In this document: piece after piece, positions 16,983-31,096 of the stretch
Layout of the letters: the number at the start of each line of letters is the position of its first letter
How positions within the stretch are numbered: the first letter of the stretch is position 1
Source: a virus
Reading direction: 5' to 3' (one strand)
Length of the DNA: 64,000 bases
IMG/VR virus record: IMGVR_UViG_3300036795_000211
Span: 1 to 64,000 of that record
Translations under genes and position numbers: made by a program
The notes under the pieces: model-generated
The model's input: the letters and a program-made list of their open reading frames with translations, nothing else
The model's database searches: none
What the model was told of the DNA's origin: nothing

Positions 16983-17405
16983 TCAGAGCAGCGGACCGAT
17001 TCGGGCCCGAGCCACCGTTGCTGCGCCGGCCACACCGAGAGGTTCGGTGCATCGGCCGACGACCGTGCCGAACACGTTCGCAGCGATCGTCTGGACCTGG
17101 CCAGTGGCATCTGCCGCCAGCAAGGCACCGAACGCCGTTGCGGTGTTGTACGTGACCCGGAGGTCGATCCCGTAGCCGACGGCCACGTAGTCCGGGTTCT
17201 GAGCGATGTTCGCCGGGTTCTGGGCGTCCTGACTCGTCCGGACCCCCGCGTCATGCAGGGCAACGCCCACGCACGTTGCGGCGAGTGCGGTGCAGGTCTT
17301 AACCGCACCACCGGTATCCGGCATCACCAGCTGGCTGCCCAGCACGGTCGAGATGACCTGATACGTGGTCGGACCCTGACGGACGTAAGGCACGAGGCCT
17401 GGCAT
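16983..17405 (-). CDS. capsid cement/decoration protein (DUF2190-like)
   Basis: VGVALHDA...GALLAADATGQV...VVGRC pattern; between scaffold and MCP. Confidence 0.75.
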   Translation of the reverse strand: MPGLVPYVRQGPTTYQVISTVLGSQLVMPDTGGAVKTCTALAATCVGVALHDAGVRTSQDAQNPANIAQNPDYVAVGYGIDLRVTYNTATAFGALLAADATGQVQTIAANVFGTVVGRCTEPLGVAGAATVARARIGPLL

Positions 17406-17463: not shown

Positions 17464-18711
17464 TTACAGGGCGAACGCCGACCGCGCCGCCTTCACGAAG
17501 TCGCGCGTTTCCTGGACTTCCTGCTCGCGCTCCTCCCGCTCTTCGTCCGGCTCGAGGCCGTTCCCGATGACGCCGCTCAGGTCGAGCAGCTTGATCTGCT
17601 TGCCGATCTCGGTCAGCACGGTTCGCATGACCTGGCCGGCATCGATCTCGTCCCCGCCGGACAGTTCGACCACGTGGCCGGACCCTTCCAGCAGTGGCCG
17701 CGCCAGGTCCACGATCGCCGGGGGGATGCCCAGCGCGTTGGCGAACTGCGTCCGTTCGTTCTGGAACGCCTGCTCGTCGAGACCGGCCTGTACCGCGTCG
17801 AGGTGCTCACCCTGCTGCACGATCAGCGCGTTCGCGTTGGCCAGTTCCAGTGCCTGCCGACGTTGCGAAGCCGAAACGGTCGCAGGAACCCGATCGGTCG
17901 GGGCCACTTCGTCCTCCTCCTCTTCGTCCTCATCGTCGTCGGTGTCCTCGTCCTCGACCATGTCGGCTTCGGCCTGCGCGATCAGCGCGTCGAGGTCCTC
18001 GTCGCTCAGCTCCGATTCGTCGTCGCTCTCACCGTCATCGTCGTCCTCGGTGAGTTCGTCGACAAGGCCTTCCAGGTCGTCATCCGACGCGTTGCGGGCC
18101 TTCTTCAGCAGCTCGAGGAGCTGACCCTTGTCTTCCAGCGTGAACGCCACCTTGTCTCCTCCTTCCCTTTCTCCGAACGTTGCATCGGAGAGGTCGAGAA
18201 CTTCGACCGTTCCGAGCTCGTTGCTCAGCGCGACGGGCACTTCGACTTCCTGCCACGTTCGCATTCCCGCGATGTGCGGGTCGAGCGTTCCCAGCACGTG
18301 CTGTAGTGCGGCCTTCCAGTGCTTTCCATCGGAACGCTCGTAGTCCTCATAGATCCTTGCGGAGACCCCGAGTTCGGGGTTGTCTCGCAGGAGTTCATCT
18401 CCCTTCCTCGTGGCCTCCAAGATCAGATCGAGACCGTCATTCGTCATCTCGACGCCGACGATCTTTCCCCGGGTCCGTTCCGGGTCGTTGTTGTGCTTGT
18501 TGTTCCCGTCGGCCAGCTGGAACGGTACCTGACCGAACGCCTTGTCCTTGAACGAACGGACGAGGTTCTGAAGGTAGTCCTTGTCGAACTTGAGCTGCTG
18601 CCCCTTGTAGGTGATCTCGCCGAGCGGCAGCAGCTGCGTACGCCACATCCGGCGACCAAGCGATACGGTACGCCGTTTGGAGCGCGGGGTGAGGAGTCCG
18701 TTTACCGTCAT
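17464..18711 (-). CDS. Mu I-like prohead protease-scaffold
   Basis: QLLPLG...H..D...GVSA...LQHVLGTLDPHIAGM protease half followed by an acidic coiled scaffold half. Confidence 0.8.
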   Translation of the reverse strand: MTVNGLLTPRSKRRTVSLGRRMWRTQLLPLGEITYKGQQLKFDKDYLQNLVRSFKDKAFGQVPFQLADGNNKHNNDPERTRGKIVGVEMTNDGLDLILEATRKGDELLRDNPELGVSARIYEDYERSDGKHWKAALQHVLGTLDPHIAGMRTWQEVEVPVALSNELGTVEVLDLSDATFGEREGGDKVAFTLEDKGQLLELLKKARNASDDDLEGLVDELTEDDDDGESDDESELSDEDLDALIAQAEADMVEDEDTDDDEDEEEEDEVAPTDRVPATVSASQRRQALELANANALIVQQGEHLDAVQAGLDEQAFQNERTQFANALGIPPAIVDLARPLLEGSGHVVELSGGDEIDAGQVMRTVLTEIGKQIKLLDLSGVIGNGLEPDEEREEREQEVQETRDFVKAARSAFAL

Positions 18712-20774
18712 GTCGCCTTCCTCGTGATCTTCTTCCCGGGTGCGAACTGTGGAATGGCGGTCCCGTGAAGGAGCCGGGCCAGTGCGATCTTGCGGGCCTC
18801 ACCCTGCGACCATCCACGAGCTTCGAGAGCGGCGGCCAACGTCCGGAGCTGCCCGACCTTCGACACGGTGATACCGAGTCGTTCGGCGAGTGCGGCGTCC
18901 TTGGCTTGCTGCTTCTCGGAGGCGATAGCGTTTGCGCCACGGTTCTTGAACAGCGTCTGCTGCAGCGTCGGATGCTTCGAGGTCGCACCGGACGCCTTGG
19001 CCGCCTTGTTCTCCGCCTTACGTACCGTGCGTCCTGCGGTGCCCTTCGGAGGAACGGCTGCGCCTCGGGCCACGGACATCGACCGCTCATGCCCGATACC
19101 TTGCAGCTTCGCCTTGTCGTAGGCCCGCTTCTGGTGCGGCTTGAGCGCTGCGTACTCGGCCTGGTGATCGGAAATCGATTTGCCGGTTGACGGTGCGGAG
19201 GTCTTACCTTCGGGGGTAGCCGTCCTACTGGTGCGGCGGCGTGACGTCCCGGGTGCCGCTCCCGTTCGTGTCACGCCGCCACTACCGCCCTCGCCCGCCC
19301 GGCGAGTCTTTCGGGATTGTCGTACTGCGCGCTCCGCCTTCAAGCGCTCCGGATGCCCCTGCGGATACTGCGCTCGAGCTGCCGTTCGGGCCTTCAGCAA
19401 GGTTGCGTGCTCCGGAGTCCCAACCGGAGTTGGGGTCGTTGCACCCGGGGTCTTAACGGTTGCCGTGTTTCCACCCGGGGTCTTTGTCGTAGCCGCCGGC
19501 TGCTTCGGCGCATTGACCACTGGCTTCTGCGTGGTCTGCTTCGTTGCGGCCATTCGATCAAGTGCGCCGCCGTGTGACATACCGCTCGCACGCAAGGCCT
19601 TGTACTGGGGGTTACCCTGCAGCTGCGTGAGCGTCATTCCGCCGACTCCGACCGGCTCGGAGGTATCCTCACCCCGCGCTTTCCGATCCAGTAGATCGTT
19701 CGTCTGCAACGTGCTGAGGGTCGACGCACGGTGCTTTCGACTCTCGATACCGTGATTCGACAGCCCACGGCGTTGCGAGATAACGGACTCGTGATCGGCG
19801 GCGTGGTCCTCGATGAGGAGCTGATGCGAACGTCCTTCGTGTCCGTGGGTAATCCCGTGCACGTCCGACAGATGCGCTATCAGCTTGAGTCGATCCTCGT
19901 TTGAACGGGAATGCGCCGGCGTGACCTTCTGACCGGACGGTGCGTACTTTGCGGCGGCTGCTGCCGTGTCCGTGGCGGAGTGCTCAGCGCCGGTCTTCGA
20001 CGGGGTCTTCGTTCCGCCGCCCTTGGTCCCGTGCTGGTAATGCGAGACCATTCCGGCGTGAATCCGAATCGTTTGACCGGACTTCGCACCCTTCGTAACT
20101 GCGACGTTGAGGTGCTCGCCGTCCTTCGAAAGGACCGTACCTTCGTGAACACCCGAGGACTGCGGGAACCGAACCTTGGAGCCGGCAGCGATCTTCGGAA
20201 GGCCGGGACCGCCGTGGTAAATCCAGCCGTGCGAATACCCCTTCGGACCGGTGAACTCGATGGCCTCTCGGCCTCCCGCGTACTCGGCGGGTGCCTTCAC
20301 CGCGCTGGGCGGGTAGCCCTTGTTCGCCGCATAGCGCTTGCACGCGGACATTGCGAACTTCGTGACAGCGTCGCCGGTCTTGCCCTGGTTCTTCGCCATT
20401 GACACGGCACGCTTGTAGACCCGGTCCATCTCACCGGCGACCGGCTGGTCCGACAACTCCCAGACGAATTCGCCTTGGGCTGCGGCGAGCTCCAGCGTTG
20501 CCCGCAAGGCCGACGACATCGCCTTTGCGGTCTGCGTGTTATCCGCCCACGAGCCCTTGACGGTTGACCACGCTCCGAGCTCACGGGCGCGCTTCCGGAT
20601 CAGCCGGCCCAGTGCGGGTCGCTTACCGGGTGCCGCCCTACCGACCGCCTGAATGGCCTTCTTCAGGTACGACCGATTCGGAATCGGATACGAGTCGTCC
20701 GGGAGTGCCTTGCCGGCCTTGGCCAGCTTTCGGCGCCCTGCCGCACGCTCCGGTGCGGGGGTCTTAACGGTCAC
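18708..20774 (-). CDS. mosaic basic head-associated protein (DUF6582-like N-terminus, Tudor/SH3-like segment, repeated helical motifs)
   Basis: ALPDDSYPI...LKKAIQAVGRA...IRKRARELG; ATGA-coupled to the protease gene. Confidence 0.75.
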   Translation of the reverse strand: MTVKTPAPERAAGRRKLAKAGKALPDDSYPIPNRSYLKKAIQAVGRAAPGKRPALGRLIRKRARELGAWSTVKGSWADNTQTAKAMSSALRATLELAAAQGEFVWELSDQPVAGEMDRVYKRAVSMAKNQGKTGDAVTKFAMSACKRYAANKGYPPSAVKAPAEYAGGREAIEFTGPKGYSHGWIYHGGPGLPKIAAGSKVRFPQSSGVHEGTVLSKDGEHLNVAVTKGAKSGQTIRIHAGMVSHYQHGTKGGGTKTPSKTGAEHSATDTAAAAAKYAPSGQKVTPAHSRSNEDRLKLIAHLSDVHGITHGHEGRSHQLLIEDHAADHESVISQRRGLSNHGIESRKHRASTLSTLQTNDLLDRKARGEDTSEPVGVGGMTLTQLQGNPQYKALRASGMSHGGALDRMAATKQTTQKPVVNAPKQPAATTKTPGGNTATVKTPGATTPTPVGTPEHATLLKARTAARAQYPQGHPERLKAERAVRQSRKTRRAGEGGSGGVTRTGAAPGTSRRRTSRTATPEGKTSAPSTGKSISDHQAEYAALKPHQKRAYDKAKLQGIGHERSMSVARGAAVPPKGTAGRTVRKAENKAAKASGATSKHPTLQQTLFKNRGANAIASEKQQAKDAALAERLGITVSKVGQLRTLAAALEARGWSQGEARKIALARLLHGTAIPQFAPGKKITRKAT

Positions 20775-20832
20775 CGATTCACCTCCATTTCGGTTGAGAC
20801 GAAAGCGACCGAGAACCCGGTATGAATCGCTA

Positions 20833-20929
20833 CCCTACTCGGCAGTGACAACCTGGCCCTAACGGTCAATGAGGTGAACCCTAACGGAGTCCACCTTGGA
20901 TATACCCCTAAATGGTGCCCACTAAACCG
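20833..20929 (-). repeat. degenerate direct repeats CCGTTAGGG upstream of the head operon
   Basis: ccctaacgg at 20857 and 20879; variants at 20833, 20906 and 20920. Confidence 0.6.
20902..20928 (-). promoter_or_regulatory. SigF/SigB-type promoter for the capsid operon
   Basis: GGTTT-N16-GGGTAT. Confidence 0.65.
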
Positions 20930-20947
20930 TTTTAACATCGCTGTAGT

Positions 20948-21307
20948 TTACGTGGGGTCAACGACAAACGGTCCGAATTGCGCCGTTACCGTCTTCCCGG
21001 CTGACGTTACGTCAATGCGCCACCAGGTCGACGCTGCAGTAGTCAGATCCGCATGCGGAATGCTAAACAGCGTGATTCCGTTCGCTAGCGGTGCCTGATT
21101 AGCACCGGCGTACGACTTGAACGACGTGTCCGAGTCCAGAACATCTCGTGAAGCCTTACGAATGAACGTACAAGTCTTCCCGGTGAGGTCCAGTGGCTGC
21201 TGCTTTCCGCCGACCAACGGAAGACTCGGATCCGTCAGTGCCGCTTGAATCGTTACGTCGTTGTTCTGACGTACCGAGATCGAGACCGGATCCATTTCGC
21301 CGGACAT
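20948..21307 (-). CDS. BppU N-terminal-like Ig domain protein
   Basis: PLDLTG.T..F...NGITLFSI..ADL...WWRIDV...T..FG.F.V pattern. Confidence 0.65.
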   Translation of the reverse strand: MSGEMDPVSISVRQNNDVTIQAALTDPSLPLVGGKQQPLDLTGKTCTFIRKASRDVLDSDTSFKSYAGANQAPLANGITLFSIPHADLTTAASTWWRIDVTSAGKTVTAQFGPFVVDPT

Positions 21308-23448
21308 TAGTCCTCCACTACTATCGTTACGTCGAACCCTAGCGGCTCGACGGTTCCCCCGTAGGTAACTACGGTAATCGTGACCCCGTAAACTATTGGC
21401 ATTGCCGATCCTTCCACCGTGTCCGGTTGGAGAACTATCGCATACCCGAGAACCACTATACTGGCTGCCAGGGCGTTTGTCGAAATCGTACAGCCAATAT
21501 CCTCCGGCGGGGGAGGTATAATGGGCGCAATTGTCGGACCGGGAAGTTCAGTGGCACGCCGTTTACGCTGGAGCGACCGCCAGAAGCGCTGGGCCAGTCG
21601 CTTGACCACTGCAACCGGAAGGGGCGGCGGCTTCGGAGGTGGCGACGGCACCCACGGAATCGTGATTCGCCTCTTAGGTAGTGACCGCCTCGACGCTCTC
21701 GGCTGTACTACCGGCTCCGGTGCGAACGGGACTAGCTTACTGCTTCGGGCTCTTCGGGTTCGTCCGGCCTGACCCTTCCGGGTAGTCTGCGGGGCGTACG
21801 GCACAACGGTGGCCCGTGGTTGTCCGGGAAGCTGCGGAGGTCGTATACGTCGAAGTAGTACAATCCGCCGCATTCGGTGCGTATCCGGAACGGTCGGGGC
21901 CACCGGTACCGTGACGGGTGGAACCGGGGTCGTAGTTGCATTCGACTTCCTTCGATACCAGCGAGTTCGGATTCGAGTCGGTGCATACGGAGCAAACGCC
22001 GCAACCGAAGGGGTAGTTGTCGGGCCCGGAAGCTGATGAATGTTCGAGCGGCGAATCCGAATTCGCCAAGTACGGTTTCGCGGCTCGTACGGAGCCGGTT
22101 GCGCCGGGGTGACCACTTGCGGAGCCGGAGGTGCCACTACGCTCTGACTTGGCTTGCGATAACGCGTTGTCCGTCTGTTCGGCTGTATCGGAATAGTCGG
22201 CTCCGGACCGAATTGAGCTGGTGCAGCATACCGTGAACGTCGGAACCGGAATACTCGACGATACAACGACAAAGCCGGAAGTGGCTGGAATACGGCTCCG
22301 ATTCCACCGGGTATCTGCTGCACTGCCCCGCGCTGTCGCCTATACCGGGTACGCCGTACGCTAGGGGTCGCGGGAGGCGGAGCCGCACTAGTAGGCAACG
22401 GTGTCGCGTGCAGGATTCGTCGACCGCGAAGGGCCCAGCGTCGCGGTATCGGAACCGGCGGAATCGGCGGTAGGGGAACTATCACCGTCGGAACCAGCGT
22501 ACCGCTCCCGTGCGAGCGCCGATAGCGGAGCTTCGAACGACTCGGCTGCGCAACCGTCTCGATTGCAGCCGGGACCTGTGTCGCACTACCCTTTCGTAGC
22601 CTACGCATAGCTGGCCGGGTAGTTCGACCCAGCTGCGGAGGCGGAAATACGACGACCGGAGGTATCACCGCTGGAACGAACGCAGTAGCGCGTCGAACAG
22701 TTCTTGGTCGGTACGGACGCGATCTTGGCGCGACGGGTACGATACCGGCGGTGACCGCGATCACCTTGGACGGGACCGGAACCGCCCTGCGATAACCTCG
22801 TACCGATCTCCGATTAAGCCGAGGCTGTCCCGGCGGGAGACCAAACGGAACGCGGGCAATGTAAACGCCCGCAAAGCCGTCGGTAAACGTCCCGGTATTC
22901 TTCAACGTCCAGACCAGTCCGAGACCTGATGTGTCCGTTATCGTTGCCGCACTGCTTGCGGCAACTACCAGAGCGACGAGTAGGCTACCCGGCGGCGGCG
23001 TGAACGCTGCTGTCGTAGCCGAGTTCGCATTGGCAGTGGCGAGCGCCGGCGTAGAGCCGTCCAGCGTAATCGTGCCATTCGGCAAGACCTCGAACAGACC
23101 TACGCCGACGTTAAGAAAGGTGTTCGATGCTCCGATCGTTACCGATCCCGGCGTTCCAGTAGCCGAAGTCGCCTTTACAGCGCCGAGCTGGAAGCTGTTC
23201 TGTGCGGCCTGCGCGATAATCGTACTACTTGCCGTAGCAAGCAGCGTGGACGCTGACCCGCCTACGGCACCGTAGACCACCGAGCCGGTTACCGTAGTAG
23301 TGATTGCTTTCGAGTAGGCCGAGCTCGACTGGTTAGTGGTACTCGCTGCCGGCTGCGCCAGGGCCGTATTTCTGAGAACCTCGACCAGGATACTCGTGCC
23401 AGTCGTAATAACCGTGCCGGCTTGCGTGGCTTTAACCGTAAACGCCAC
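21307..23448 (-). CDS. 713-aa protein: beta-rich N-domain plus periodic Arg/Pro repeats
   Basis: Single long ORF, TAATG coupling to the downstream gene, no competing long ORF. Confidence 0.75.
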   Translation of the reverse strand: MAFTVKATQAGTVITTGTSILVEVLRNTALAQPAASTTNQSSSAYSKAITTTVTGSVVYGAVGGSASTLLATASSTIIAQAAQNSFQLGAVKATSATGTPGSVTIGASNTFLNVGVGLFEVLPNGTITLDGSTPALATANANSATTAAFTPPPGSLLVALVVAASSAATITDTSGLGLVWTLKNTGTFTDGFAGVYIARVPFGLPPGQPRLNRRSVRGYRRAVPVPSKVIAVTAGIVPVAPRSRPYRPRTVRRATAFVPAVIPPVVVFPPPQLGRTTRPAMRRLRKGSATQVPAAIETVAQPSRSKLRYRRSHGSGTLVPTVIVPLPPIPPVPIPRRWALRGRRILHATPLPTSAAPPPATPSVRRTRYRRQRGAVQQIPGGIGAVFQPLPALSLYRRVFRFRRSRYAAPAQFGPEPTIPIQPNRRTTRYRKPSQSVVAPPAPQVVTPAQPAPYEPRNRTWRIRIRRSNIHQLPGPTTTPSVAAFAPYAPTRIRTRWYRRKSNATTTPVPPVTVPVAPTVPDTHRMRRIVLLRRIRPPQLPGQPRATVVPYAPQTTRKGQAGRTRRARSSKLVPFAPEPVVQPRASRRSLPKRRITIPWVPSPPPKPPPLPVAVVKRLAQRFWRSLQRKRRATELPGPTIAPIIPPPPEDIGCTISTNALAASIVVLGYAIVLQPDTVEGSAMPIVYGVTITVVTYGGTVEPLGFDVTIVVED

Positions 23449-23472
23449 TGCGCACCCAGCTCTCTCCGAATG

Positions 23473-23505
23473 GGCCGGCGGGTCCGCATACTACCCGCCG
23501 GCCCC
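23473..23505 (-). terminator. GC-rich hairpin (attenuator or terminator)
   Basis: About 12-bp stem gggccggcgggt / acccgccggccc. Confidence 0.55.
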
Positions 23506-23518
23506 GCTCCCGTTCGAC

Positions 23519-24034
23519 CTACTCGTCGGTCTCCACCGTGACCACGAACAGATGCGAGGCCGGGAGTGCGTTACCGATGTTGACCAGGGCCAGTCCGTTC
23601 GCCGTTCCCTGGTCCACGATGAACATGTCGTCCGGGAATTCGAACGGCACGTCCCAGCCGACCTGCGTGTTGAACGTCAGCTTGTGCAGTGCGGTTGCGC
23701 CGATCGTCGGACCGGTCGTACCTGCGGTCGTTGCCGTGGTTACGTCCAGCCCGGTGATCACCGAAGCCGGTCCGCGCTGATCCGTGTTCTGGAACGTGGT
23801 CGTACCGAATCCGGTACCGACCACTCGAACCGTCTGACGGTACAGCGCGATCGTGTGCTGGTCCGAGGTGACGGAACCCGCCGGTCCCCGAACGCCGAGG
23901 ATCAGCCGGCGCAGCTTGACGTTCGATGATGCCCCCGCGACAATCGCCGCGAAGTACCCGTTGAACGTGGTCGTTGCCGGCGTCCCAGCGAGCTGTGCGG
24001 ACTGCGATTCGAGCGACGCTACGAAGCGACCCAT
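23519..24034 (-). CDS. Thr/Ala-rich beta-sandwich structural protein
   Basis: High GC3 as in abundant virion proteins; followed by a hairpin. Confidence 0.75.
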   Translation of the reverse strand: MGRFVASLESQSAQLAGTPATTTFNGYFAAIVAGASSNVKLRRLILGVRGPAGSVTSDQHTIALYRQTVRVVGTGFGTTTFQNTDQRGPASVITGLDVTTATTAGTTGPTIGATALHKLTFNTQVGWDVPFEFPDDMFIVDQGTANGLALVNIGNALPASHLFVVTVETDE

Positions 24035-24315
24035 TACTCGCTACCTCCCTTCCGGATCGCGAGAGCGGCCTGGAGCCGTTCCCGATTATCGCTGCCCACG
24101 ACCTGCTCGCCGGAGTCGTGGAGCTCGAGGAGTCGGGCGGCGTGGTCGGCCTCCCGCATCTCCTCATCGGAGAGCTGGTCGATAAGGCTCTCGAGCGTCT
24201 TCACGTGCGACTCAATCTGCTCGAGTCGCGTTCGCAAGGCCGGTCGCGTGTACTTCGCACGCAGAGTCTCAACGAGTCCGTCGAGTACGCTGCGGTCCGA
24301 CGTTTCGTCCGCCAC
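24034..24315 (-). CDS. small helical hypothetical protein
   Basis: GTG start after purine-rich SD; TAATG coupling. Confidence 0.65.
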   Translation of the reverse strand: MADETSDRSVLDGLVETLRAKYTRPALRTRLEQIESHVKTLESLIDQLSDEEMREADHAARLLELHDSGEQVVGSDNRERLQAALAIRKGGSE

Positions 24316-24435
24316 TTCCCTTTCCCTTCTTCGGTTCGGGTTCGGTGTAGATAATCGGAACACCGTCAGCGTTCAACGTGATAACGGTATCCCCCGGCTC
24401 GGGTACTTCATCTTCCGGAGGCGGATCCTGCTTGG

Positions 24436-25059
24436 TCATACTGCCACCGCCCTAGTGTGTCGTTTGTCCCAGTGGCCCTTCCGTTGTTGCGCCTGCCGGA
24501 AGTCCTTTTGCGTATACGTATACGACCCGATGTGTCGCATCGTCTTGACGCGCTTCGAGGTGAACTGCTCGTTCACGTATACGTGCACTTCGCCGGTGAC
24601 CTGATCGACCACCTGCACCACGATCAACGGCATCCAGCCGTTCTTTGCGGTCTCCGCCTTCTTACGGAGCTGCTCTTCGGTCTTCATCGCGATTCGCTGG
24701 TTCTTGGCGTGGACGTTTAGCGTCTTCAGCTCTCCGCCGTACTTGTGGTCGAGTCGGAAGTCGAGTGGCGTATTTCGTGCCGTTGTCTGCCCCGCCTTAC
24801 GAACCCCGGCTCCGGAGATCTCGATATACGGATGCCCGAAGTGCTTCTCGAGCAGGGCCTTACCCTTTGCTGCGAACAACGCTTCGAACGTATCACCGAT
24901 CTCGGTCTTGCCCATCGCCGCACCAGTAGACGGATGCGTAAAACGAGAGGCCGTCTGACCTGGATCGCTAGCAAGCGACCCGACACCCTTCTTCGTAAAC
25001 TCACCGCCGCCGTGGTGATGCCCCGGAATGCGTGGGTGCAGATCCTCTTCCCACGTCAC
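24436..25059 (-). CDS. HPR...GGEF-tagged putative PD-(D/E)xK nuclease
   Basis: N-terminal WEEDLHPR...GGGEF; E...PLDF...GGELKT nuclease-like motif. Confidence 0.6.
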   Translation of the reverse strand: MTWEEDLHPRIPGHHHGGGEFTKKGVGSLASDPGQTASRFTHPSTGAAMGKTEIGDTFEALFAAKGKALLEKHFGHPYIEISGAGVRKAGQTTARNTPLDFRLDHKYGGELKTLNVHAKNQRIAMKTEEQLRKKAETAKNGWMPLIVVQVVDQVTGEVHVYVNEQFTSKRVKTMRHIGSYTYTQKDFRQAQQRKGHWDKRHTRAVAV

Positions 25060-25997
25060 AACGCACGCGCCCGAAGAACCAAAGCGGATGCCCTGCCCCT
25101 GAGTTGCCGAACCTGCACTTGTAGCTGCCCGATCTGGTTCCTCAAGCTATTCGCCTTAGTTGTTGCGGCACTTGACGCTGTTGAGGTGGCCTTTTTTGCC
25201 GTTGTCTTTCCGGCCTTCTTGGCCACAGTGGTGGCTGAGGCCTTAGCCTTCGTAGCAGTCTTTCCCTTGGTCGTCGTCCCGGTTGCTTTCGACCCGCCGG
25301 TCTTGGTCGACTTTCCGGAGTTCGTAACCCCCTTGAGCTCCTTCTGCAAGCCGCCGATCTTTACCTCGAGTGCGTTAGCCTGCTGCCGAAAGCCTTTCGC
25401 CCTCGTTAGCAACTGCGCCTTCTTGGCGCCCTTCGGACCGCGGGAGACCGGAGCCGTCTTTTGCCCCGGAGCCTTTTTCGCAGCAGGTGCCTTTGCCGCT
25501 GACGCACCGCCGCTGCTTCCGGACTTTGGTGCGAACTGCCCGCCGGTAGCGCTACCGGCTCCGACGTGCATCGTGTTGAACAGCTCGATCGGTTGCGCCA
25601 AAACGTCGTCTCGTGACATAGCCTTCGCTCTCGCCGCGGTTGCCTTGAGTTCGGCGATAGCCGCTGCAGCCGCCGCCTTTACTTCGGGATGCTTGCTCGT
25701 TGCCGCAAGTCGCTTGCACGCGTTGATCGCGGTGGCCGTTGCTCGACCCTCCGCCATACCGCCACGCATCAACGCGTTACGCATGTTCTCGATGTAGTTA
25801 GGTAGCTTCGCACCCTTCATGTGGTACAAGCCGGGTCCGCCGGGCTTGCCGCGTGGCGCGGGGGTAGCCACGAGTCGAGGCGTTTCCGCCGACAACGAGA
25901 TACCCTTGTGCTTCCGAATAAGCCGCATTAGCAGCTGCGTATGGGCATCCGGCTTCGGATCATGCGCATACGAGGAGTCACTGAGTTGCGTTGTCAC
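25056..25997 (-). CDS. Lys/Ala-rich head-associated protein
   Basis: PAP.GKPGGPGLYH..LP.YIE..R.AL.R domain; internal FNTMH..GGQF; H1-like tail. Confidence 0.7.
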   Translation of the reverse strand: MTTQLSDSSYAHDPKPDAHTQLLMRLIRKHKGISLSAETPRLVATPAPRGKPGGPGLYHMKGAKLPNYIENMRNALMRGGMAEGRATATAINACKRLAATSKHPEVKAAAAAAIAELKATAARAKAMSRDDVLAQPIELFNTMHVGAGSATGGQFAPKSGSSGGASAAKAPAAKKAPGQKTAPVSRGPKGAKKAQLLTRAKGFRQQANALEVKIGGLQKELKGVTNSGKSTKTGGSKATGTTTKGKTATKAKASATTVAKKAGKTTAKKATSTASSAATTKANSLRNQIGQLQVQVRQLRGRASALVLRARAL

Positions 25998-28096
25998 GAC
26001 TTCTTGATACCTCCAAGATCGTACTCCTGCGGCATCATCTTCAGCTTTGCGTACTCCGCGTACGCTCTAGCCGCTGCCCGCGGATTCGAATTCGCCGTTG
26101 CCTCGGTCCACAGCTCGGCCATTAGCTCGCTCGGCGATTGAGATGCGTATTCCGAGATGTTCGCCTTAATCGCCGGCGCATTCGCCTCGACCCACTTCTG
26201 CAGCGTCCCCCGGTTTATCAGTGCGTCCGCGCGATCGACACTGTCCTGCGTCATTCCGGCGAACACTTTGTCGATCTCCGCCGTCATCTGCGGACGATTG
26301 GCCTTTAGCGCCTCGTACGGCGCACGCATTTCGGCCACCGTGGTATGCGACAACTCCGGTCGGGTTGCGCCGATCGAATCAGCTATCGTATTCCACAGTT
26401 CCTGCGTAAAGCCGCCTTGCGGAAGGTGACGATGTACGCCGTGTCCGATCTCGTGGGTGAAGTTCGACTGAAAGCGGCCGACCTTTTCGTTGGTCGGTAC
26501 GTGAAATCCGGAGGACTCCTCGTCGCCCTTCCCCCGAAGGGTGTGCAGCTTCGGATGCAGCGTTATCTCGCCGCCGGGTCCGTGCGTCCCCGCCGTATAT
26601 GCGCCGGGGCGACTCTTCGCAGTTTCCGGATCAACGGTGCTCTGCGGCTTTTCAACGGTGACGTGCGTGGCGGAAACAACATGCGGAGCGTGCTTCGACT
26701 GAATTTCGAGAACCTTCTCGATCTTCTGCTTGAAGCGTACCTTCTCGCCGGGTGAGTATAGGAACGTACTCACCGTAGGATCGGACTCGTTTATCGTTAC
26801 ACCGCGACTCTTTACCGGTTCCGGTGCAGGCGGAAGTCCGGCCCGCTGTAGGTCCGCGTTGTACCGTGCTCGCTCCTCCGGATTTAGCCGGGACGCCACC
26901 TTTTCCGTTAGCTTTTCGTTCGCCGCTCGGGCACGAGTGTTGTAATCCGCTATTGCTCCCGCGCTACCCTGCTTGTCGTTCGGTAGGGTTAGCGATACCA
27001 GCTTACCGTTCTCCTGCTGACGCTCTACTACGAAGCCATTTTCCTCGAGCTTCGCCGCGTACGCCGTTAGATTGTTGTGTACCCGATCCGCGGTAGACGA
27101 ATTGCGGCTGCCCAACGAGCTACCGGTGTAGTGCTCAATTCGCACCCCGTTGTCACCGGCGGATACTTCGTGTCCCGGATCGTAATTGCGCCAGCCCTTG
27201 ACGGACGTCGAATGGCTCTTCACGGCCGCGAATCCGGACGAGCTTAGCGCAGAACGCGCTCGTCGCGCATTGACTTCGGCTGCTACGCGACCCTTTCCCT
27301 TCTCCACGGCTTGCACGTGCGCCGTCAAGGCAGTGTACTGCGAATCACCGCCGCCGAGGTAGATCTCCTTGCTGTTCCCGCTAGTGAGGAACGAGCCACC
27401 GGAGGACTTGTTCGTGGTAACGGCACCGATGTGCTTGTCGTCATGCCGAAAAGTGGTGACCCAGTCCTTGTGCTGCGTCGGAACGACACCACGACGCTGC
27501 TCCCGTAGATTCGGATACGAGTGTCCGGTACGCTCAATCGGTTCGGAGGTCGTTACCTCGGAAGGGTGTATTCCGCCCTTGCGGCGGCGTGAGCTCCTCG
27601 GTACCCGCGGGGCCTTGACCGCGGGAGGCGAAGCCACCTGGAGGTCCTCGCGATTGGCTACCTCGGCGTGGACTTCCTTCCAGAATTCCGTCCGATGCGC
27701 TGACCCCGGGTGATCCTCGCTGAGTCCGCGATCATTCGCGTTCTGCATCGCACTAGCCACGGCGTCATCGTATGCCGCGGTTTTCGGGAACGCCGATACC
27801 TTTCGACGCCACTCCGATTCCGTACCACCGAGACCGACCGGGGATTCACCGGGTGTCGTTTCCATCTTCGGAGCGGCTTCTTGACCCGGCTCGACCGACT
27901 TCGTGTGCATTCCGAGCTTGCGCGACTTGCGTACTGCGTTCTCGGCCTTTAGCCGTTCAGGGTGACCCGCGGGATGCGCCGCTCGAGCCTCAGTCCGAGC
28001 CGTTAGCAGCTCGGAGTGTGGCGTAACGCCGGGTATTCCGTGGAATACCCAGCCGTGGGAGTACCCTTTCGGTCCCACAAGGTCGAGCGTGCGCAT
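25994..28096 (-). CDS. 700-aa protein with C-terminal zincin-like metallopeptidase
   Basis: THEIGHG plus ISEYA...ELMAELW. Confidence 0.7.
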   Translation of the reverse strand: MRTLDLVGPKGYSHGWVFHGIPGVTPHSELLTARTEARAAHPAGHPERLKAENAVRKSRKLGMHTKSVEPGQEAAPKMETTPGESPVGLGGTESEWRRKVSAFPKTAAYDDAVASAMQNANDRGLSEDHPGSAHRTEFWKEVHAEVANREDLQVASPPAVKAPRVPRSSRRRKGGIHPSEVTTSEPIERTGHSYPNLREQRRGVVPTQHKDWVTTFRHDDKHIGAVTTNKSSGGSFLTSGNSKEIYLGGGDSQYTALTAHVQAVEKGKGRVAAEVNARRARSALSSSGFAAVKSHSTSVKGWRNYDPGHEVSAGDNGVRIEHYTGSSLGSRNSSTADRVHNNLTAYAAKLEENGFVVERQQENGKLVSLTLPNDKQGSAGAIADYNTRARAANEKLTEKVASRLNPEERARYNADLQRAGLPPAPEPVKSRGVTINESDPTVSTFLYSPGEKVRFKQKIEKVLEIQSKHAPHVVSATHVTVEKPQSTVDPETAKSRPGAYTAGTHGPGGEITLHPKLHTLRGKGDEESSGFHVPTNEKVGRFQSNFTHEIGHGVHRHLPQGGFTQELWNTIADSIGATRPELSHTTVAEMRAPYEALKANRPQMTAEIDKVFAGMTQDSVDRADALINRGTLQKWVEANAPAIKANISEYASQSPSELMAELWTEATANSNPRAAARAYAEYAKLKMMPQEYDLGGIKKS

Positions 28097-28108
28097 CCCG
28101 CGCCCTTT

Positions 28109-28942
28109 CTACTGAACGCCGTTACGAGCGGCCCAACGCGTCAGTGCCTGGTACGCACCCAGCACATCGGCATCGACCGAAGGACTGGGAGTCGGTGCCG
28201 GCGGGGCCGAGGTCAGTGCCTTCGGAACGTTTACGTCGCCGTTCTCGGAAAGCAGTCGCGCCCAGGTGTCCCACGACATGTAACCGCGGCCGTCCACGCC
28301 CCAGCTCGCCCCCCACGAGTTCTGGAAGCCGACGAGCTGCGGCTCGATCACGATCTCATCGAAGCACATCTCGTGTCCACCGGCCACTCCGGAACCCGGC
28401 GAGATCGAAATGACTCCCTTCGAGTTCGGAGTGAACATCGACTCGTAGAAGTTGAAGCCGGAGATGGTCGGCTGCTTCTCCAGCGCTCCGAGTGCCGTGC
28501 TAAGCGACAGCGCGTGAAGGTACCCGGAGATGTACCCGTCGTTCTTCGCTGCCTTGCAGGCCGACGTTCCGTCCGATCCGGTGTCCTCGGAACCCGGAGC
28601 CGTGGGATTCTTCCAGTTGTACGTTCCCGGGAACGAGTCGAGCGCCGTGGCCTCGCCGTAGAACTCCTGTGCGAGGTTCTCGCCTCGGGTCTGCATTGCC
28701 TGCTGGAGGATCGCCGTAAGCGCGTCCCAGAGCGGACCGGATGCACAGGCACCGCCGATAGCGTTTCCGGTACACGCACCGGTCTGAAGCTGGTCGTAAA
28801 TCGGAATGTGCCGCGGCCACTTCACCGGCGTGTACGTCGCCTCGCGTGTTGCGAGGAAGTGCAGGTTACGGGAGTCGAACGCGAAGTGGCGACCCAGTCT
28901 CGGGTCACGAACGAGCGGATATCGGGCAGTTGAGATCGTCAT
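28109..28942 (-). CDS. papain-like (C1) cysteine peptidase
   Basis: DQLQTGACTG, GGHE and QNSWGASWGVDG catalytic motifs; ATGA overlap with MuF. Confidence 0.85.
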   Translation of the reverse strand: MTISTARYPLVRDPRLGRHFAFDSRNLHFLATREATYTPVKWPRHIPIYDQLQTGACTGNAIGGACASGPLWDALTAILQQAMQTRGENLAQEFYGEATALDSFPGTYNWKNPTAPGSEDTGSDGTSACKAAKNDGYISGYLHALSLSTALGALEKQPTISGFNFYESMFTPNSKGVISISPGSGVAGGHEMCFDEIVIEPQLVGFQNSWGASWGVDGRGYMSWDTWARLLSENGDVNVPKALTSAPPAPTPSPSVDADVLGAYQALTRWAARNGVQ

Positions 28943-29607
28943 GCGTTGCCTCCTGTTGGTAGCATTCGAGCACCCCGATGCGGAGCACCGGGGAAACACC
29001 GACAGTGAACGTGGACCGTTCCCGGCCAGCCGATCTTCGGCGGGATTAGCGCACTGAAATTCTTGCCATTAGCGTTCCGACACTCCGCCGTCGTTCGGCT
29101 ATCGTTCTTGCTATACCACCCGAGAACCGTACCGTACTGCTGTCCTAGCGCGTCGATCGTGGACGCCGCTATTATCCGTTGTGCCGACGCTTGAATGTGC
29201 TGCCCGTAAAACCGTCGCTCCGCATACCGAGCAGTGTTTGCCGCTACGTTTGGGTTCTCACCGTGCGCGCGGGCTTCTGCAATTTCCCGACGCAAACGTG
29301 TAAGCGCATTCACGAGGTACGCGGAGCGACGGAGCTCGTTCTCGCGGATCATTTCGGCTTGTGCGGCTCCGACACCTTGCATCTGCGGCATCGGGAACTC
29401 GTCGATTATCGCTAGTGCGATCTGCAGTGCGGACATTCCGACCTTGTCGGCGACCCGAATACCGAGCAACCGCGAGAGCGCGGGAAGGGCAGCCGTTGCA
29501 CTAAGGAACATCGAACCGCCGAGGATTAGCGCTACGGTTCCGACCAGTGCGGTATTGCTTTGCTGCGGCGGAATCTGCGTTTGCGTGTTAGGCTGCACGC
29601 TGTCCAC
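28939..29607 (-). CDS. MuF-like minor head protein (short form)
   Basis: W...ND.RT..EC...GK.F...P..H..CRC motif. Confidence 0.85.
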   Translation of the reverse strand: MDSVQPNTQTQIPPQQSNTALVGTVALILGGSMFLSATAALPALSRLLGIRVADKVGMSALQIALAIIDEFPMPQMQGVGAAQAEMIRENELRRSAYLVNALTRLRREIAEARAHGENPNVAANTARYAERRFYGQHIQASAQRIIAASTIDALGQQYGTVLGWYSKNDSRTTAECRNANGKNFSALIPPKIGWPGTVHVHCRCFPGAPHRGARMLPTGGNA

Positions 29608-31096
29608 CTCCGGCGGCTGCGGCTAGCTTCGATGCAGCATCTGCGGCCCCCGCGATACGTGCGGCACCTTGACCGATCGGCGAGGCGCCCATCGCACTTG
29701 CTTGCGCTGCCTGCTGTGCTCGGTAATCGGCAGCGTGGGACAGGATCGTCACTACCTTGTCCTGCGGAAGGTTGAAGATGGTCGACACCTTTTCGGCCAC
29801 CAGGTCAAGGAACTCCGGCGGGATGTTCAACTTCGGAGCAGCCATTCCGGCCTGCAGCAATCCGACGATCTGTGCCGAATCGGTCTGCGACAACGGTGAG
29901 GAGACCAAGCGGGGCACCTTCGCATTCGCACCCCACTTGTTTAGGATGCACAACGGTGCCGTAACCTCGGACGTAAACTGGTCGCAGATCTCCGTTTTCA
30001 CGGCCTCGCGGTGCTTGAGGAAGAAGTCGGACTGCGACTCGGACAACGCATAGGACCCGCGACCCAGCGCTGCCGCATTACCGAGCTCCAAGAACCCGGC
30101 TAGAACGCTTCGACTCTGATAGCTCTGGAGGAACTGCAGCGCGGCTTGAAACTGCTGCGCGCCCTGACCCTGCGAGGCGATTACGTCGAATAGCTTTCCA
30201 CCTTGCGGCGGACGCTGAAAGCCCGCCACTCCGGAGGACTTCATCGACGCGATCGTTTCGGCTATCTCATTCGCCGAGGTCGGGTCCGGTCCGTAGGCCG
30301 CAATCTTCGGAAGCGATTGCTGCTCGAGGAACTGGAACCACAGGAACAGCAGCTTCTGCTTCTGCTTGTAGCACCAGTACGTTACGTCCATGTCGGAGAT
30401 ACCCGTCAATGGCTGACGGTGCATTCCGTGAATGAACACGAACGCTCTCGGCTTGTAGATCCGAATGTAACCGTCCCAGTTGTTTCCGAATCGCTCCTTG
30501 GCTTTCGGGTTCGTTGAGAACCACCACGCACGCTGACGGAATCCGGTCATCTTTGCCGTGTGTTCGTCCCGCATCACCTCACACGTCTCCGGAGGACGCC
30601 AGTTCAGCGACTCGAGCTTGACGACATTACCTTCGGGGTTCGTCCACTCCTTCTCGAAGAACGCCTTTCGGTGGTACGTACCTCCGGACATCTGACCGAT
30701 GATCGTCGACATATTCGGAGTGATACCGCCGGCCTCGACCGGACTCTCGAGCTGCTCCTGCACCAGATCGAGCTCTCCGGTGTCACCCTTCTGTCCTTCG
30801 AAGCTGTACGTAGCTGCACGTATCGGCAGGGTCAGTGCTTGCTCGATCATGATTGCGTCGCCGTCTCGACGAAGCATTTCGTCGAGGTCCCGGATCTTCC
30901 ATTCGCCGGTCTCGAATACCGAACCGTCCTGGAACGAGACGAACATCCGGGTGTAGAGGTCGAACGCCGTACCCGATTCACCCTGCAGTAGCCGACGCTT
31001 CTGCGCCTTCGTAAGCTTCGGAAGGGAATCGATAACGTCCTTCGGAGCGGGAGGCGGCTTCTTCCGGGCTAGCCCGTTTCCGGCGATCGTAGCCAT
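29588..31096 (-). CDS. portal protein (DUF935/Mu gp29-like)
   Basis: Follows terL; SVLAGFL.LG...GSYALSES motif. Confidence 0.85.
   Translation of the reverse strand: MATIAGNGLARKKPPPAPKDVIDSLPKLTKAQKRRLLQGESGTAFDLYTRMFVSFQDGSVFETGEWKIRDLDEMLRRDGDAIMIEQALTLPIRAATYSFEGQKGDTGELDLVQEQLESPVEAGGITPNMSTIIGQMSGGTYHRKAFFEKEWTNPEGNVVKLESLNWRPPETCEVMRDEHTAKMTGFRQRAWWFSTNPKAKERFGNNWDGYIRIYKPRAFVFIHGMHRQPLTGISDMDVTYWCYKQKQKLLFLWFQFLEQQSLPKIAAYGPDPTSANEIAETIASMKSSGVAGFQRPPQGGKLFDVIASQGQGAQQFQAALQFLQSYQSRSVLAGFLELGNAAALGRGSYALSESQSDFFLKHREAVKTEICDQFTSEVTAPLCILNKWGANAKVPRLVSSPLSQTDSAQIVGLLQAGMAAPKLNIPPEFLDLVAEKVSTIFNLPQDKVVTILSHAADYRAQQAAQASAMGASPIGQGAARIAGAADAASKLAAAAGGGQRAA

What the first reader, a model, noticed from the sequence alone, without database searches (positions are those of the whole stretch)
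18708..28999. Candidate tagged virion-cargo system: unrelated head-cassette proteins share short peptide tags
Seen in sequence: about 10 kb and nine ORFs lie between MuF and the prohead protease. The 700-aa (25994-28096) and 688-aa (18708-20774) proteins are otherwise dissimilar but share two blocks. The first is GPKGYSHGW[VI][FY]HG.PG (about 28028-28078 and 20200-20250). The second is LL.ART.ARA.[HY]P.GHPERLKAE.AVR.SRK (about 27918-28010 and 19309-19401). The GPKGYSHGW codons differ at 4 of 9 synonymous positions, so conservation acts on the peptide. A second tag type, H...GG[EQ]F..K, starts the 207-aa protein (WEEDLHPRIPGHHHGGGEFTKK) and sits inside the 313-aa protein (FNTMHVGAGSATGGQFAPK). 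Established: MuF-neighbouring genes often encode virion-packaged polymorphic effectors, and T4 loads internal proteins via a short capsid-targeting peptide. Inference: the tags are procapsid- or portal-loading signals for a swappable set of effectors (nuclease, metalloprotease, basic DNA binders) injected at infection.
Basis: partly seen in the sequence, partly recalled or inferred. Interest (0 to 1): 0.88.

Follow-up and report, generated by a model that had tools for sequence, protein, structure and literature searches.

The report
Shared leader peptides on phage head cargo
A soil phage carries a variable set of enzyme genes between its portal/MuF genes and its capsid genes, and these otherwise unrelated proteins share short, strongly conserved peptide motifs that mark where each protein module begins, probably as signals for processing or retention inside the capsid.

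Summary
The 700-aa and 688-aa proteins share only two blocks: M1 (xLDLVGPKGYSHGW...) and M2 (a GHPERLKAE helical hairpin). Both are conserved at the peptide level, with synonymous sites scrambled. The second tag type is also a real motif family (NPxxPRVPxGxxGGGxF).

M1 is widespread. A profile search of 1.84 billion proteins found 495 cluster representatives, often with 2-4 copies each. It occurs in proteins carrying MuF, portal, ADP-ribosyltransferase, NUDIX, zeta-toxin and other domains. In 25 of 27 related viral contigs, the M1 genes lie between or beside homologues of this window's portal, MuF, protease/scaffold or capsid genes.

M1 is not simply an N-terminal address tag. It punctuates domain boundaries in giant portal-MuF-ART polyproteins. 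It is never within 30 residues of a C-terminus. It is preceded by a junction element (phi-phi-[DE]-L; long form SWxxVxxAIEL) that also precedes four other module leaders, and a similar element sits at the domain boundary of the protease/scaffold protein.

Best reading: module-leader and junction signals of MuF/portal-linked head-internal effectors, acting in prohead processing and/or retention, like the T4 capsid targeting sequence. The function is inferred, not shown. The system type is known; I did not find this motif grammar in Pfam, in PDB sequences or in the papers I checked.

The parts
29588..31096 (-). Portal protein (502 aa)
   Evidence: Homologues (E down to 1e-248) lie next to TerL and MuF in related loci. 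The gene sits between TerL (31096-32871) and MuF. A conserved FLDL element lies near the C-terminal tail.
28939..29607 (-). Stand-alone MuF-like minor head protein (222 aa)
   Evidence: Pfam Phage_Mu_F at E 8.4e-4, below the curated cut-off. It is 37% identical (E 4e-41) to Streptomyces phage Intolerant gp8, annotated as MuF-like.
28109..28999 (-). Papain-like cysteine peptidase (296 aa)
   Evidence: phrog_16701 'peptidase' at E 2.3e-34 and a weak Pfam Peptidase_C1 hit. Candidate catalytic motifs by inspection: QTGACTGNA, GGHEM and QNSWG. Present in L004 and L005, absent in L006.
25994..28096 (-). 700-aa cargo protein: M1-M2 leader, central domain of unknown fold, C-terminal zincin (HEIGH at 26441-26455)
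   Evidence: The leader is 78-94% identical in homologues whose middle regions differ. AF2 mean pLDDT is 57.6 and Foldseek finds no fold match.
28028..28090 (-). M1 leader motif, copy 1 (TLDLVGPKGYSHGWVFHGIPG, aa 3-23 of the 700-aa protein)
27911..28027 (-). M2 motif, copy 1 (VTPHSELL...GHPERLKAE...SRKLG, aa 24-62)
   Evidence: AF2 predicts two helices (aa 27-40 and 46-60) at pLDDT 71-81.
25056..25997 (-). 313-aa 'trailer' protein: M4 helical module (25620-25901), M3 motif (25524-25592), K/A/T-rich basic region, C-terminal coiled coil (25059-25151)
   Evidence: In P0001, P0003-P0005, P0007 and P0008 it is fused to the C-terminus of 700-aa-type proteins. The M4 module is also found at the start of Streptomyces phage gp8/gp9.
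24436..25059 (-). 207-aa protein: M3-type leader (24988-25053) followed by a PD-(D/E)xK nuclease-like domain (LDF...ELK at 24721-24765)
   Evidence: ESM Atlas feature hits score 0.94 to restriction-endonuclease-like and PDDEXK clusters, and structure hits include RecU and PDDEXK. The homologue in L009 is fused to MuF.
21307..23448 (-). 713-aa protein with a beta-rich N-terminus and a central Pro/Arg-rich repeat region of roughly 430 aa
   Evidence: Sequence. It has only a weak homologue in L006 and L008 (E about 1e-12) and no Pfam or PHROG family. It carries no shared tags.
18708..20774 (-). 688-aa cargo protein: conserved N-domain (ALPDxSYPIPN..., 20574-20708), M1 copy 2 (20202-20264), SH3-like barrel (20040-20189), M2 copy 2 (19302-19421), basic tail
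   Evidence: The barrel has pLDDT 85-89 and gives SH3/Tudor-like Foldseek matches with E >= 0.009. Where the locus reaches that far, this gene type sits directly upstream of the protease/scaffold gene in most related loci.
17464..18711 (-). 415-aa prohead protease/scaffold candidate: N-domain with invariant H73, S117 and H138, acidic linker, C-terminal helical domain. Junction-like sites at 18184-18258 (TWQEVEV...VLDLSD), 17653-17676 (HVVELSGG) and 17572-17592 (KLLDLSG)
   Evidence: In the alignment of 14 homologues, W153, D173 and L174 are invariant. One homologue hits phrog_976 'head maturation protease' at E 4.4e-5. hhalign to Mu gpI aligns the expected region but at only 1.6% probability. 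Annotated 'hypothetical' or 'scaffolding' in isolated phages.
15946..16944 (-). Major capsid protein (332 aa)
   Evidence: NCBIfam capsid_Caudo_1 at E 1e-32, below the curated cut-off. Homologues are in the same position in related loci.

Best explanation
The region is a variable cassette of head-internal, probably ejected, effector proteins of a soil actinophage-like virus. It belongs to the known class of MuF/portal-linked polymorphic or polyvalent virion proteins.

The shared blocks are conserved module-leader peptides:
- M1: phi-[DE]-L-V-G-P-K-G-Y-x-H-G-W-phi-x-V-G.
- M2: a basic helix-loop-helix.
- M3: NPxxPRVPxGxxGGGxF.
- M4: LSAETxRL...GKPGGPGLW, a helical domain.

Each module starts after a junction element, phi-phi-[DE]-L, whose long form is SWxxVxxAIEL. 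In relatives the same modules are strung into single polyproteins of up to 2951 aa (portal-M1-MuF-M1-ART-ART). In this virus they are split into translationally coupled genes.

Most likely mechanism (inferred): the proteins enter the procapsid with portal, MuF and the acidic protease/scaffold protein. The prohead protease cuts them at the junction elements. The leader that stays on each module serves as a handle for recognition or retention in the head. This would be functionally analogous to T4's capsid targeting sequence combined with gp21 sites.

Shown here: the motifs, their selection, their position in modules, and their link to portal, MuF and effector domains. Inferred: cleavage, binding partner, packaging and ejection.
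For: - Two shared blocks only, with synonymous sites scrambled.
- The leader is 78-94% identical in homologues whose middle regions differ (ADPRT, zincin, others). The 313-aa protein is fused as a constant C-terminal trailer in six of them.
- In 25 of 27 IMG/VR loci, M1 genes lie between or beside homologues of portal, MuF, 415-aa protein or MCP. They favour two slots: right after MuF and right before the 415-aa gene.
- A separate lineage (L026) has M1 in the portal's C-terminal extension and between MuF and ADPRT.
- The exhaustive profile search found 495 representatives. Of 130 scanned, 19 carry ADPrib_exo_Tox, 10 MuF, 7 NUDIX, 6 Arr-ms and 5 portal, plus zeta toxin, NADAR, HINT and hydrolases.
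- M1 sits at domain boundaries in portal-MuF-ART polyproteins.
- Of 225 M1 copies, 42 are within 30 aa of an N-terminus, none within 30 aa of a C-terminus and 1 within 60 aa.
- N-terminal copies keep the phi-[DE]-L pre-strand.
- The junction regex occurs 32 times against 0.6 in shuffles. By my reading, almost all of its 35 occurrences (proteins plus loci) are followed by one of five leader types.
- The 415-aa protein has invariant W153...D173-L174 at its domain boundary and two more phi-phi-[DE]-L-S sites.
- L009 fuses MuF to the nuclease through a VVEL...YRHGW junction, in the place where the window has EEDL-HPR...GGGEF.
- AF2 gives low confidence for M1 in two contexts while the neighbouring domains fold, as expected for a motif that orders on binding.
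- Only 2 true M1 hits were found in 185,579 prokaryote genomes, so the motif is virus-specific.
Against: - No direct evidence for cleavage, binding or packaging.
- M1 is much longer and more conserved than typical protease sites.
- Its core is nearly invariant across lineages whose portal, MuF and capsid proteins are too diverged for phmmer. A co-evolving phage partner would be expected to let the motif drift. This could favour a universal ligand or a host target.
- The protease identity of the 415-aa protein is weakly supported: one PHROG hit among 14 homologues, and hhalign to Mu gpI at 1.6% probability.
- Enrichment of phi-phi-[DE]-L in the cargo proteins alone is not significant (3 observed against about 1.5 by my rough estimate).
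- The loci were found through the motif itself, so their head context is not an unbiased sample, and most belong to one related phage group.
Confidence: 0.5

Rival explanations
1. Pure address tags. M1, M2 and M3 dock stand-alone effectors in trans onto the capsid interior, scaffold, portal or MuF, as encapsulin cargo-loading peptides or the P22 scaffold helix-turn-helix do. No proteolysis is involved.
For: - Several unrelated proteins of one head cassette share the motifs.
- 27 of 225 M1 copies start within 15 aa of the N-terminus.
- M2 is a basic helix-loop-helix, like known coat-binding scaffold domains.
- M1 is disordered on its own in AF2 models.
- In MuF fusions M1 follows MuF by 15-35 residues, so a trans copy could mimic a cis contact.
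Against: - Most copies are internal and repeated.
- M1 is present in proteins already covalently joined to portal or MuF, where an address tag is redundant.
- The model does not explain the junction element shared with the protease/scaffold protein.
Confidence: 0.2
2. The motifs act after injection, or through an intrinsic property. Examples: binding a conserved host component or DNA, helping unfolded modules thread or refold, or self-processing chemistry. On this view the head context only reflects where effectors are encoded.
For: - The M1 core is nearly invariant across lineages whose head proteins have diverged beyond detection. That fits an invariant ligand better than a co-evolving phage partner.
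- Tyr, His and Trp fall on one face of a predicted strand (inference from the sequence).
Against: - M1 also precedes MuF itself and lies in portal extensions, which are structural parts rather than effectors.
- It is essentially absent from bacterial genomes, including their toxin systems.
- There is no PDB sequence match that would suggest a known ligand-binding hairpin.
Confidence: 0.15
3. The motifs are recombination joints or inert linker relics of domain shuffling, with no function of their own.
For: The proteins are highly mosaic, and the motifs lie at module boundaries.
Against: - Synonymous sites are scrambled while the peptide is kept, so DNA homology cannot drive exchange.
- Seven residues are invariant over 35 instances, and the profile finds hundreds of clusters.
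- The leader is better conserved than the enzymatic domains next to it.
Confidence: 0.05

Closest known systems
MuF-associated polymorphic toxins and phage-type polyvalent proteins (Zhang et al. 2012, PMC3482391; Jamet et al. 2017, PMC5576092; Iyer et al. 2017, PMC5512222; Iyer et al. 2022, PMC9503650)
   Same: - Effector enzymes (ARTs, NUDIX, nucleases, peptidases) are fused to, or encoded beside, MuF and portal in the head module, and are predicted to be packaged and injected.
- A papain-like peptidase is associated with MuF, as Zhang et al. 2012 noted.
- Zincin peptidases have been proposed to process polyvalent proteins.
   Different: - Term searches of these papers found no mention of a conserved leader or junction peptide grammar.
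- Here the effectors are largely split from MuF into separate genes.
- The conserved parts are both ends (M1-M2 leader and M4-M3-basic-coiled-coil trailer) with a variable middle, rather than a conserved N-terminus with a variable C-terminal toxin.
- I did not look for an immunity gene.
T4 capsid targeting sequence on internal proteins, with gp21 cleavage sites; prohead-protease motifs in giant phages (PMC3012670, PMC5694885, PMC10052503; details of these from my own knowledge)
   Same: - A short shared peptide sits on otherwise unrelated head-internal proteins.
- The junction element ends in phi-x-acidic, reminiscent of L/I-x-E.
- The same kind of site recurs in the scaffold/protease protein and in the cargo.
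   Different: - M1 is far more conserved than the T4 CTS, is often internal and repeated, and probably stays on the module.
- There is no sequence similarity to the T4 CTS.
- Cleavage and targeting are untested here.
Pre-toxin junction motifs of polymorphic toxins (CdiA VENN, PT-TG, Rhs PxxxxDPxGL)
   Same: A short conserved motif lies directly N-terminal of swappable domains.
   Different: The motif is virus-specific, occurs several times per protein and precedes non-toxin modules too. DNA-level identity is not conserved, so it does not serve as a homologous-recombination joint.
Streptomyces griseus phages LazerLemon and Intolerant (gp6-gp15 head module)
   Same: - Homologous MuF (37% identity) and 415-aa protein (about 42-50% identity over the matched parts).
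- A large ART-bearing gene right after MuF that starts with the M4 module.
   Different: - One 1175-1187-aa protein stands in place of several genes.
- Only degenerate M1-like motifs are present (GATGWKHGWIPV; VLDF...FRYKHGWILI).
- Canonical M1 is absent from 50,697 deposited phage records.

Membership tests
MuF/portal-linked polymorphic toxin or polyvalent virion protein systems | MuF-domain gene beside portal and terminase genes | tested here: met
   Pfam MuF at E 8.4e-4, below the cut-off. 37% identity (E 4e-41) to an annotated MuF-like protein. Gene order TerL-portal-MuF.
MuF/portal-linked polymorphic toxin or polyvalent virion protein systems | Variable enzymatic effector domains fused to, or directly downstream of, MuF or portal | tested here: met
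   In the window: papain-like peptidase, zincin, PD-(D/E)xK nuclease. In relatives: MuF-nuclease fusion, MuF-M1-ADPRT, portal-MuF-ART polyproteins. Middle regions differ between homologues.
MuF/portal-linked polymorphic toxin or polyvalent virion protein systems | Effectors physically present in virions and delivered to the host | not testable with these tools
   Needs virion proteomics. No isolate of this virus exists.
MuF/portal-linked polymorphic toxin or polyvalent virion protein systems | Cognate immunity gene next to the toxin (temperate-phage MuF toxins) | not tested
   I did not look for an immunity gene. Canonical M1 is nearly absent from prokaryote genomes, which suggests these viruses are rarely prophages.
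T4-type capsid targeting sequence | Short N-terminal peptide shared by unrelated head-internal proteins | tested here: inconclusive
   N-terminal in the 700-aa and 207-aa proteins, and 42 of 225 M1 copies are within 30 aa of an N-terminus. Most copies are internal or repeated.
T4-type capsid targeting sequence | Removed or flanked by prohead-protease cleavage, and sufficient to load foreign proteins | not testable with these tools
Pre-toxin recombination motifs (VENN-like) | Conserved motif immediately N-terminal of variable domains | tested here: met
Pre-toxin recombination motifs (VENN-like) | Nucleotide-level conservation that supports cassette exchange | tested here: not met
   Nucleotide identity is 39/57 in M1 and 75/123 in M2, and most identical residues use different codons.
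Mu gpI / P2 gpO-type prohead protease-scaffold fusion (for the 415-aa protein) | Sequence or profile similarity to known head maturation proteases, and a conserved catalytic His/Ser | tested here: inconclusive
   No Pfam, NCBIfam or PDB hit. One of 14 homologues hits phrog_976 at E 4.4e-5. hhalign to Mu gpI aligns the expected region at only 1.6% probability. H73, S117 and H138 are invariant.

The most novel reading that the evidence does not exclude
The junction element plus the M1 leader form a portable capsid-targeting and processing signal of actinophages. On this reading, a peptide of about 20-30 residues would be sufficient to load any protein into the procapsid and to have it trimmed by the prohead protease. 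Portal-MuF-effector polyproteins would be built and dismantled by this single grammar. It would be a second, sequence-defined counterpart to T4's CTS that works across many phage lineages.
Probability: 0.3. Interest if true: 0.75.

Novelty: new variant of a known kind. Interest (0 to 1): 0.6.

Why it matters
Head-packaged effectors linked to MuF and portal are predicted to be widespread, but how they are sorted, cut apart and kept in the capsid is largely unknown outside T4 and the giant phages.

A sequence-defined leader and junction grammar gives concrete sites to test by virion N-terminomics and mutagenesis. About 500 protein clusters carry it, including polyproteins that run from portal through MuF to several ADP-ribosyltransferases.

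If the motifs prove sufficient for loading or processing, they would give a rule for finding virion cargo in metagenomes. They would also give a handle for loading proteins into actinophage capsids.

Tried and rejected
Context came from IMG/VR loci instead.
No test of tag binding to the protease/scaffold, MCP, portal or MuF could be run.
- megablast of the region and tblastn of the 700-aa and 313-aa proteins against 50,697 phage records found nothing.
- M1 peptides of both flavours found no true match there.
- Arthrobacter phage Sonali's portal-MuF fusion has no M1.
- Pfam, PHROGs and NCBIfam give no family for the tag-bearing proteins.
- The M1 profile finds nothing among PDB sequences.
- Foldseek on the low-confidence 700-aa model finds no fold.
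- AF2 does not place M1 confidently, either alone or next to the SH3-like barrel. M1 therefore does not appear to be an integral strand of that barrel.
- hhalign of the 415-aa family against Mu gpI was inconclusive, and a PDB profile search gave nothing.
- Term searches in the MuF-toxin paper found no mention of motifs, linkers or cleavage.
- Sequencing runs: one soil-metagenome DNA run, possibly the source sample, and no RNA holder listed.
- Ideas considered and set aside:
  - The papain-like or zincin peptidase as the enzyme needed for M1. The close relative L006 keeps M1 but lacks both.
  - Recombination joints.
  - M1 binding the Pro/Arg-rich 713-aa protein through the SH3-like barrel. This was not tested, and most M1 copies lack the barrel.

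Full report
**What the window is**

The window is 64 kb of a 73.7-kb IMG/VR virus record with direct terminal repeats, rated complete. GC content is about 61%. The only sequencing run that holds the sequence is a soil metagenome, possibly the source sample.

The head genes lie on the minus strand in this order:

| Gene | Coordinates | Evidence |
|---|---|---|
| TerS | 32940-33536 | position |
| TerL | 31096-32871 | position |
| Portal | 29588-31096 | homologues in related loci |
| MuF-like, 222 aa | 28939-29607 | weak Pfam hit; 37% identity, E 4e-41, to Streptomyces phage Intolerant gp8 |
| Nine ORFs | 18708-28999 | see below |
| Protease/scaffold candidate, 415 aa | 17464-18711 | |
| 140-aa protein | 16983-17405 | position |
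| Major capsid protein | 15946-16944 | NCBIfam capsid_Caudo_1, E 1e-32 |

The nine ORFs are:
- a papain-like peptidase of 296 aa (phrog_16701, E 2e-34);
- the 700-aa protein, which ends in a HEIGH zincin;
- the 313-aa protein;
- a 207-aa PD-(D/E)xK nuclease-like protein;
- ORFs of 109 and 171 aa;
- a 713-aa protein with a Pro/Arg-rich repeat region;
- a 119-aa ORF;
- the 688-aa protein.

Several consecutive genes overlap by 4 nt. The closest isolated relatives in the head module are Streptomyces griseus phages such as LazerLemon and Intolerant. The host is therefore probably an actinobacterium.

BLASTP of the 700-aa protein against the 688-aa protein gives only two significant blocks. M1 is aa 4-24 vs 172-192. 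M2 is aa 23-60 vs 452-489. Within GPKGYSHGW, 4 of 9 codons differ synonymously. In M2, 17 of 26 identical residues use different codons. The copies are therefore old and kept by selection on the peptide. There are no further copies in the genome.

**The tags in close relatives**

A search with residues 1-62 of the 700-aa protein found 11 proteins. In eight of them the M1-M2 leader is 78-94% identical while the rest differs. One has an ADP-ribosyltransferase (Pfam PF03496). Some have the zincin, and others have unrelated middle regions. Six of them end in a fused copy of the window's 313-aa protein.

The unit is therefore a constant leader (M1-M2), a variable middle and a constant trailer. The trailer consists of the M4 helical module, M3, a K/A/T-rich basic region and a coiled coil. 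In this window the unit is split into two coupled genes.

**Genomic context**

A scan of IMG/VR found 27 loci with M1. Using phmmer with the window's head proteins, M1 genes in 25 of these loci lie between or beside homologues of portal, MuF, the 415-aa protein or MCP. Two slots are favoured: right after MuF and right before the 415-aa gene. Cassette content varies. The papain-like peptidase is present in L004 and absent in L006. In L009, MuF is fused to the nuclease.

A lineage without detectable similarity in head proteins (L026) has M1 in three places:
- the C-terminal extension of a 1166-aa portal protein;
- between MuF (aa 388-496) and an ADPRT (aa 594-741) in one 756-aa protein;
- a third neighbouring protein.

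These loci were found through the motif itself and most belong to one phage group, so they are not an unbiased sample.

**How far M1 reaches**

A 34-column profile of 35 instances was run against 1.84 billion representatives. It gave 495 proteins at E<=0.001 and 64 at E<=1e-10. By regex, 62 of the 146 best new hits have 2-3 copies; hmmsearch reports up to 4 matched stretches per protein.

Pfam families among 130 of these proteins:

| Family | Proteins |
|---|---|
| ADPrib_exo_Tox | 19 |
| Phage_Mu_F | 10 |
| NUDIX | 7 |
| Arr-ms | 6 |
| Phage_portal | 5 |
| ART-PolyVal | 3 |
| Zeta toxin | 2 |

NADAR, HINT, alpha/beta hydrolase and Tle3 also occur.

Domain maps show giant polyproteins. Examples are portal-M1-MuF-M1-ART-ART (2951 aa) and portal-M1-MuF-ART-M1-ART-M1-ART (2181 aa). 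In these, M1 lies at domain boundaries.

Of 225 M1 copies, 27 lie within 15 aa of an N-terminus and 42 within 30 aa. None lies within 30 aa of a C-terminus and only 1 within 60 aa. M1 therefore belongs to the module that follows it.

There are two flavours...[DE]-L-V-G-P... and ...x-K-V-G-P... They never mix within a protein: 0 of 78 pairs, against 0 of 2000 shuffles reaching that value. Shared ancestry alone could produce this pattern.

**The junction element**

N-terminal copies keep the pre-strand, as in MRTLDL-, MTIEL- and MDL-. In L-type copies the upstream consensus is [AV]-[IVL]-[ED]-L-V.

A longer element, [ST]-W-x-x-phi-x-x-A-I-E-L, occurs 32 times in the protein set, against 0.6 in shuffles. 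With the locus ORFs added there are 35 occurrences. By my reading, almost all are followed by one of five module starts:
- M1;
- M4 (SAETxRL...);
- M3 (AGFNPAQPR...);
- an [AS]TFAGxKPGSG module;
- the TPxHE.AGRR start of the 688-aa-type N-domain.

Some proteins contain four such junctions.

The 415-aa family has invariant W153...D173-L174 (TWQEVEV...VLDLSD) exactly at the end of its N-domain. It also has two further conserved phi-phi-[DE]-L-S sites. MuF-M1 fusions of the K flavour have a phi-D-L-[ST] element just after the MuF core. MCP and portal homologues keep LILDL and FLDL elements.

The pattern resembles the repeated protease sites of a polyprotein. Whether they are cut was not tested.

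**The second tag type**

The 207-aa protein's EEDLHPRIPGHHHGGGEF and the 313-aa protein's IELFNTMHVGAGSATGGQF are linked by intermediate forms. Examples are AFNEALHPRVPAGGAGGGEF and ELFNPAQPRVPPGQAGGGQF.

In L009 the homologous nuclease is fused to MuF, and the junction there reads VVELAATPDHEHIPGTAYHYRHGW. An M1-like YxHGW motif thus stands where the window has HPR...GGGEF. The two leader types can occupy the same position.

**Structure**

- AF2 of the 700-aa protein gives M1 a pLDDT of 37-55. M2 forms two helices at pLDDT 71-81.
- AF2 of M1 plus the following 80 residues of the 688-aa protein gives a confident small barrel (pLDDT 85-89). Its Foldseek matches are SH3/Tudor/KOW-like with E >= 0.009, and M1 is again poorly defined.
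- About a third of M1 copies are followed by such a barrel; the rest are not.
- The M1 profile finds no PDB sequence.

M1 behaves as a short motif that would order on binding a partner.

**Distribution**

A back-translated pattern scan of 185,579 prokaryote genomes gave 7 matches. Only 2 look genuine, in a Streptosporangiaceae MAG and a Mycobacterium MAG. Canonical M1 is absent from deposited phage genomes. Streptomyces phage gp8/gp9 carry degenerate versions, GWKHGWIPV and VLDF...FRYKHGWILI.

**Literature**

MuF-fused toxins, portal-MuF fusions, virion ARTs and polyvalent proteins are established predictions. So is the idea that built-in peptidases process polyvalent proteins (PMC3482391, PMC5576092, PMC5512222, PMC9503650, PMC7302621). 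Term searches in these papers found no conserved leader or junction peptide.

**Interpretation**

The cassette is a member of the known MuF/portal-linked effector class. I found no prior description of the conserved grammar: junction element, leader, module. I favour a CTS-like role in prohead processing and/or retention (confidence 0.5). My reasons are:
- M1 precedes structural modules such as MuF as well as effectors.
- It is present in proteins already tethered to portal.
- It punctuates polyproteins, which must be cut if the effectors are to leave the head.
- The protease/scaffold protein carries look-alike sites.

The main counter-argument is that the M1 core is nearly invariant across lineages whose head proteins have diverged beyond detection. 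That would fit an invariant ligand or a host target.

Inert recombination joints are unlikely (0.05).

The look-up of encoding contigs and complex prediction were closed, so no binding test was made.

Noticed in passing
window 21307-23448 (-): The 713-aa protein has a beta-rich N-terminus, then roughly 430 aa of Pro/Arg-rich repeats (units like RxRYRR...VPxxxP), then a short beta-rich C-terminus. No family was found. It has only a weak, longer homologue (about 1043 aa) in L006. It could be a basic DNA-condensing or hub protein.
   Followed up: partly
window 17464-18711 (-), aa about 195-270: The protease/scaffold candidate has a very acidic linker (runs of D and E). Several cargo proteins have long basic K/R/A/T-rich stretches. 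Electrostatic co-assembly in the procapsid, as in the T4 core, is conceivable.
   Followed up: no
L009:8415-9866: A related virus fuses MuF directly to the homologue of the window's 207-aa nuclease. The same modules therefore exist fused and split in sister genomes.
   Followed up: yes
P0020 (2951 aa), P0023 (2181 aa), P0052, P0066, P0069: Single ORFs run from a portal domain through MuF to one to three ADP-ribosyltransferase domains. P0066 also shows a weak intein-splicing hit (E 8.5e-6, below the cut-off) after the portal domain.
   Followed up: partly
P0032, P0035, P0048, P0057, P0072: A sub-variant of M1 reads K-E-G-Y-I-H-G-W-I-C-V-x-P-P-C-G, with two conserved cysteines right after the motif. 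It may be a small metal-binding or disulphide element.
   Followed up: no
window 24436-25059 (-): The ESM Atlas holds this protein only from Met49 on, so some gene calls skip the HPR...GGGEF leader. The leader is nevertheless conserved at the protein level in L004 and L006, which argues for the upstream GTG start.
   Followed up: partly
window 15946-16944 (-) aa 31-36, and 29588-31096 (-) aa 430-434: The MCP N-arm (LILDL) and the portal C-terminal region (FLDL) carry conserved phi-L-D-L elements like the cargo junctions. These are possible maturation cleavage sites.
   Followed up: partly
window 18708-20774 (-) aa 23-67: The N-domain motif ALPDxS[FY]PIPN..YLKKAI.AVGRA is the best conserved part of the 688-aa family. 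It also matches hypothetical proteins of large Microbacterium phages such as Pumpernickel and Zooman. Its function is unknown.
   Followed up: no
window 25994-25997, 25056-25059, 18708-18711: Consecutive cassette genes overlap by 4 nt (ATGA/GTGA type). This suggests translational coupling of what are single genes in relatives.
   Followed up: no
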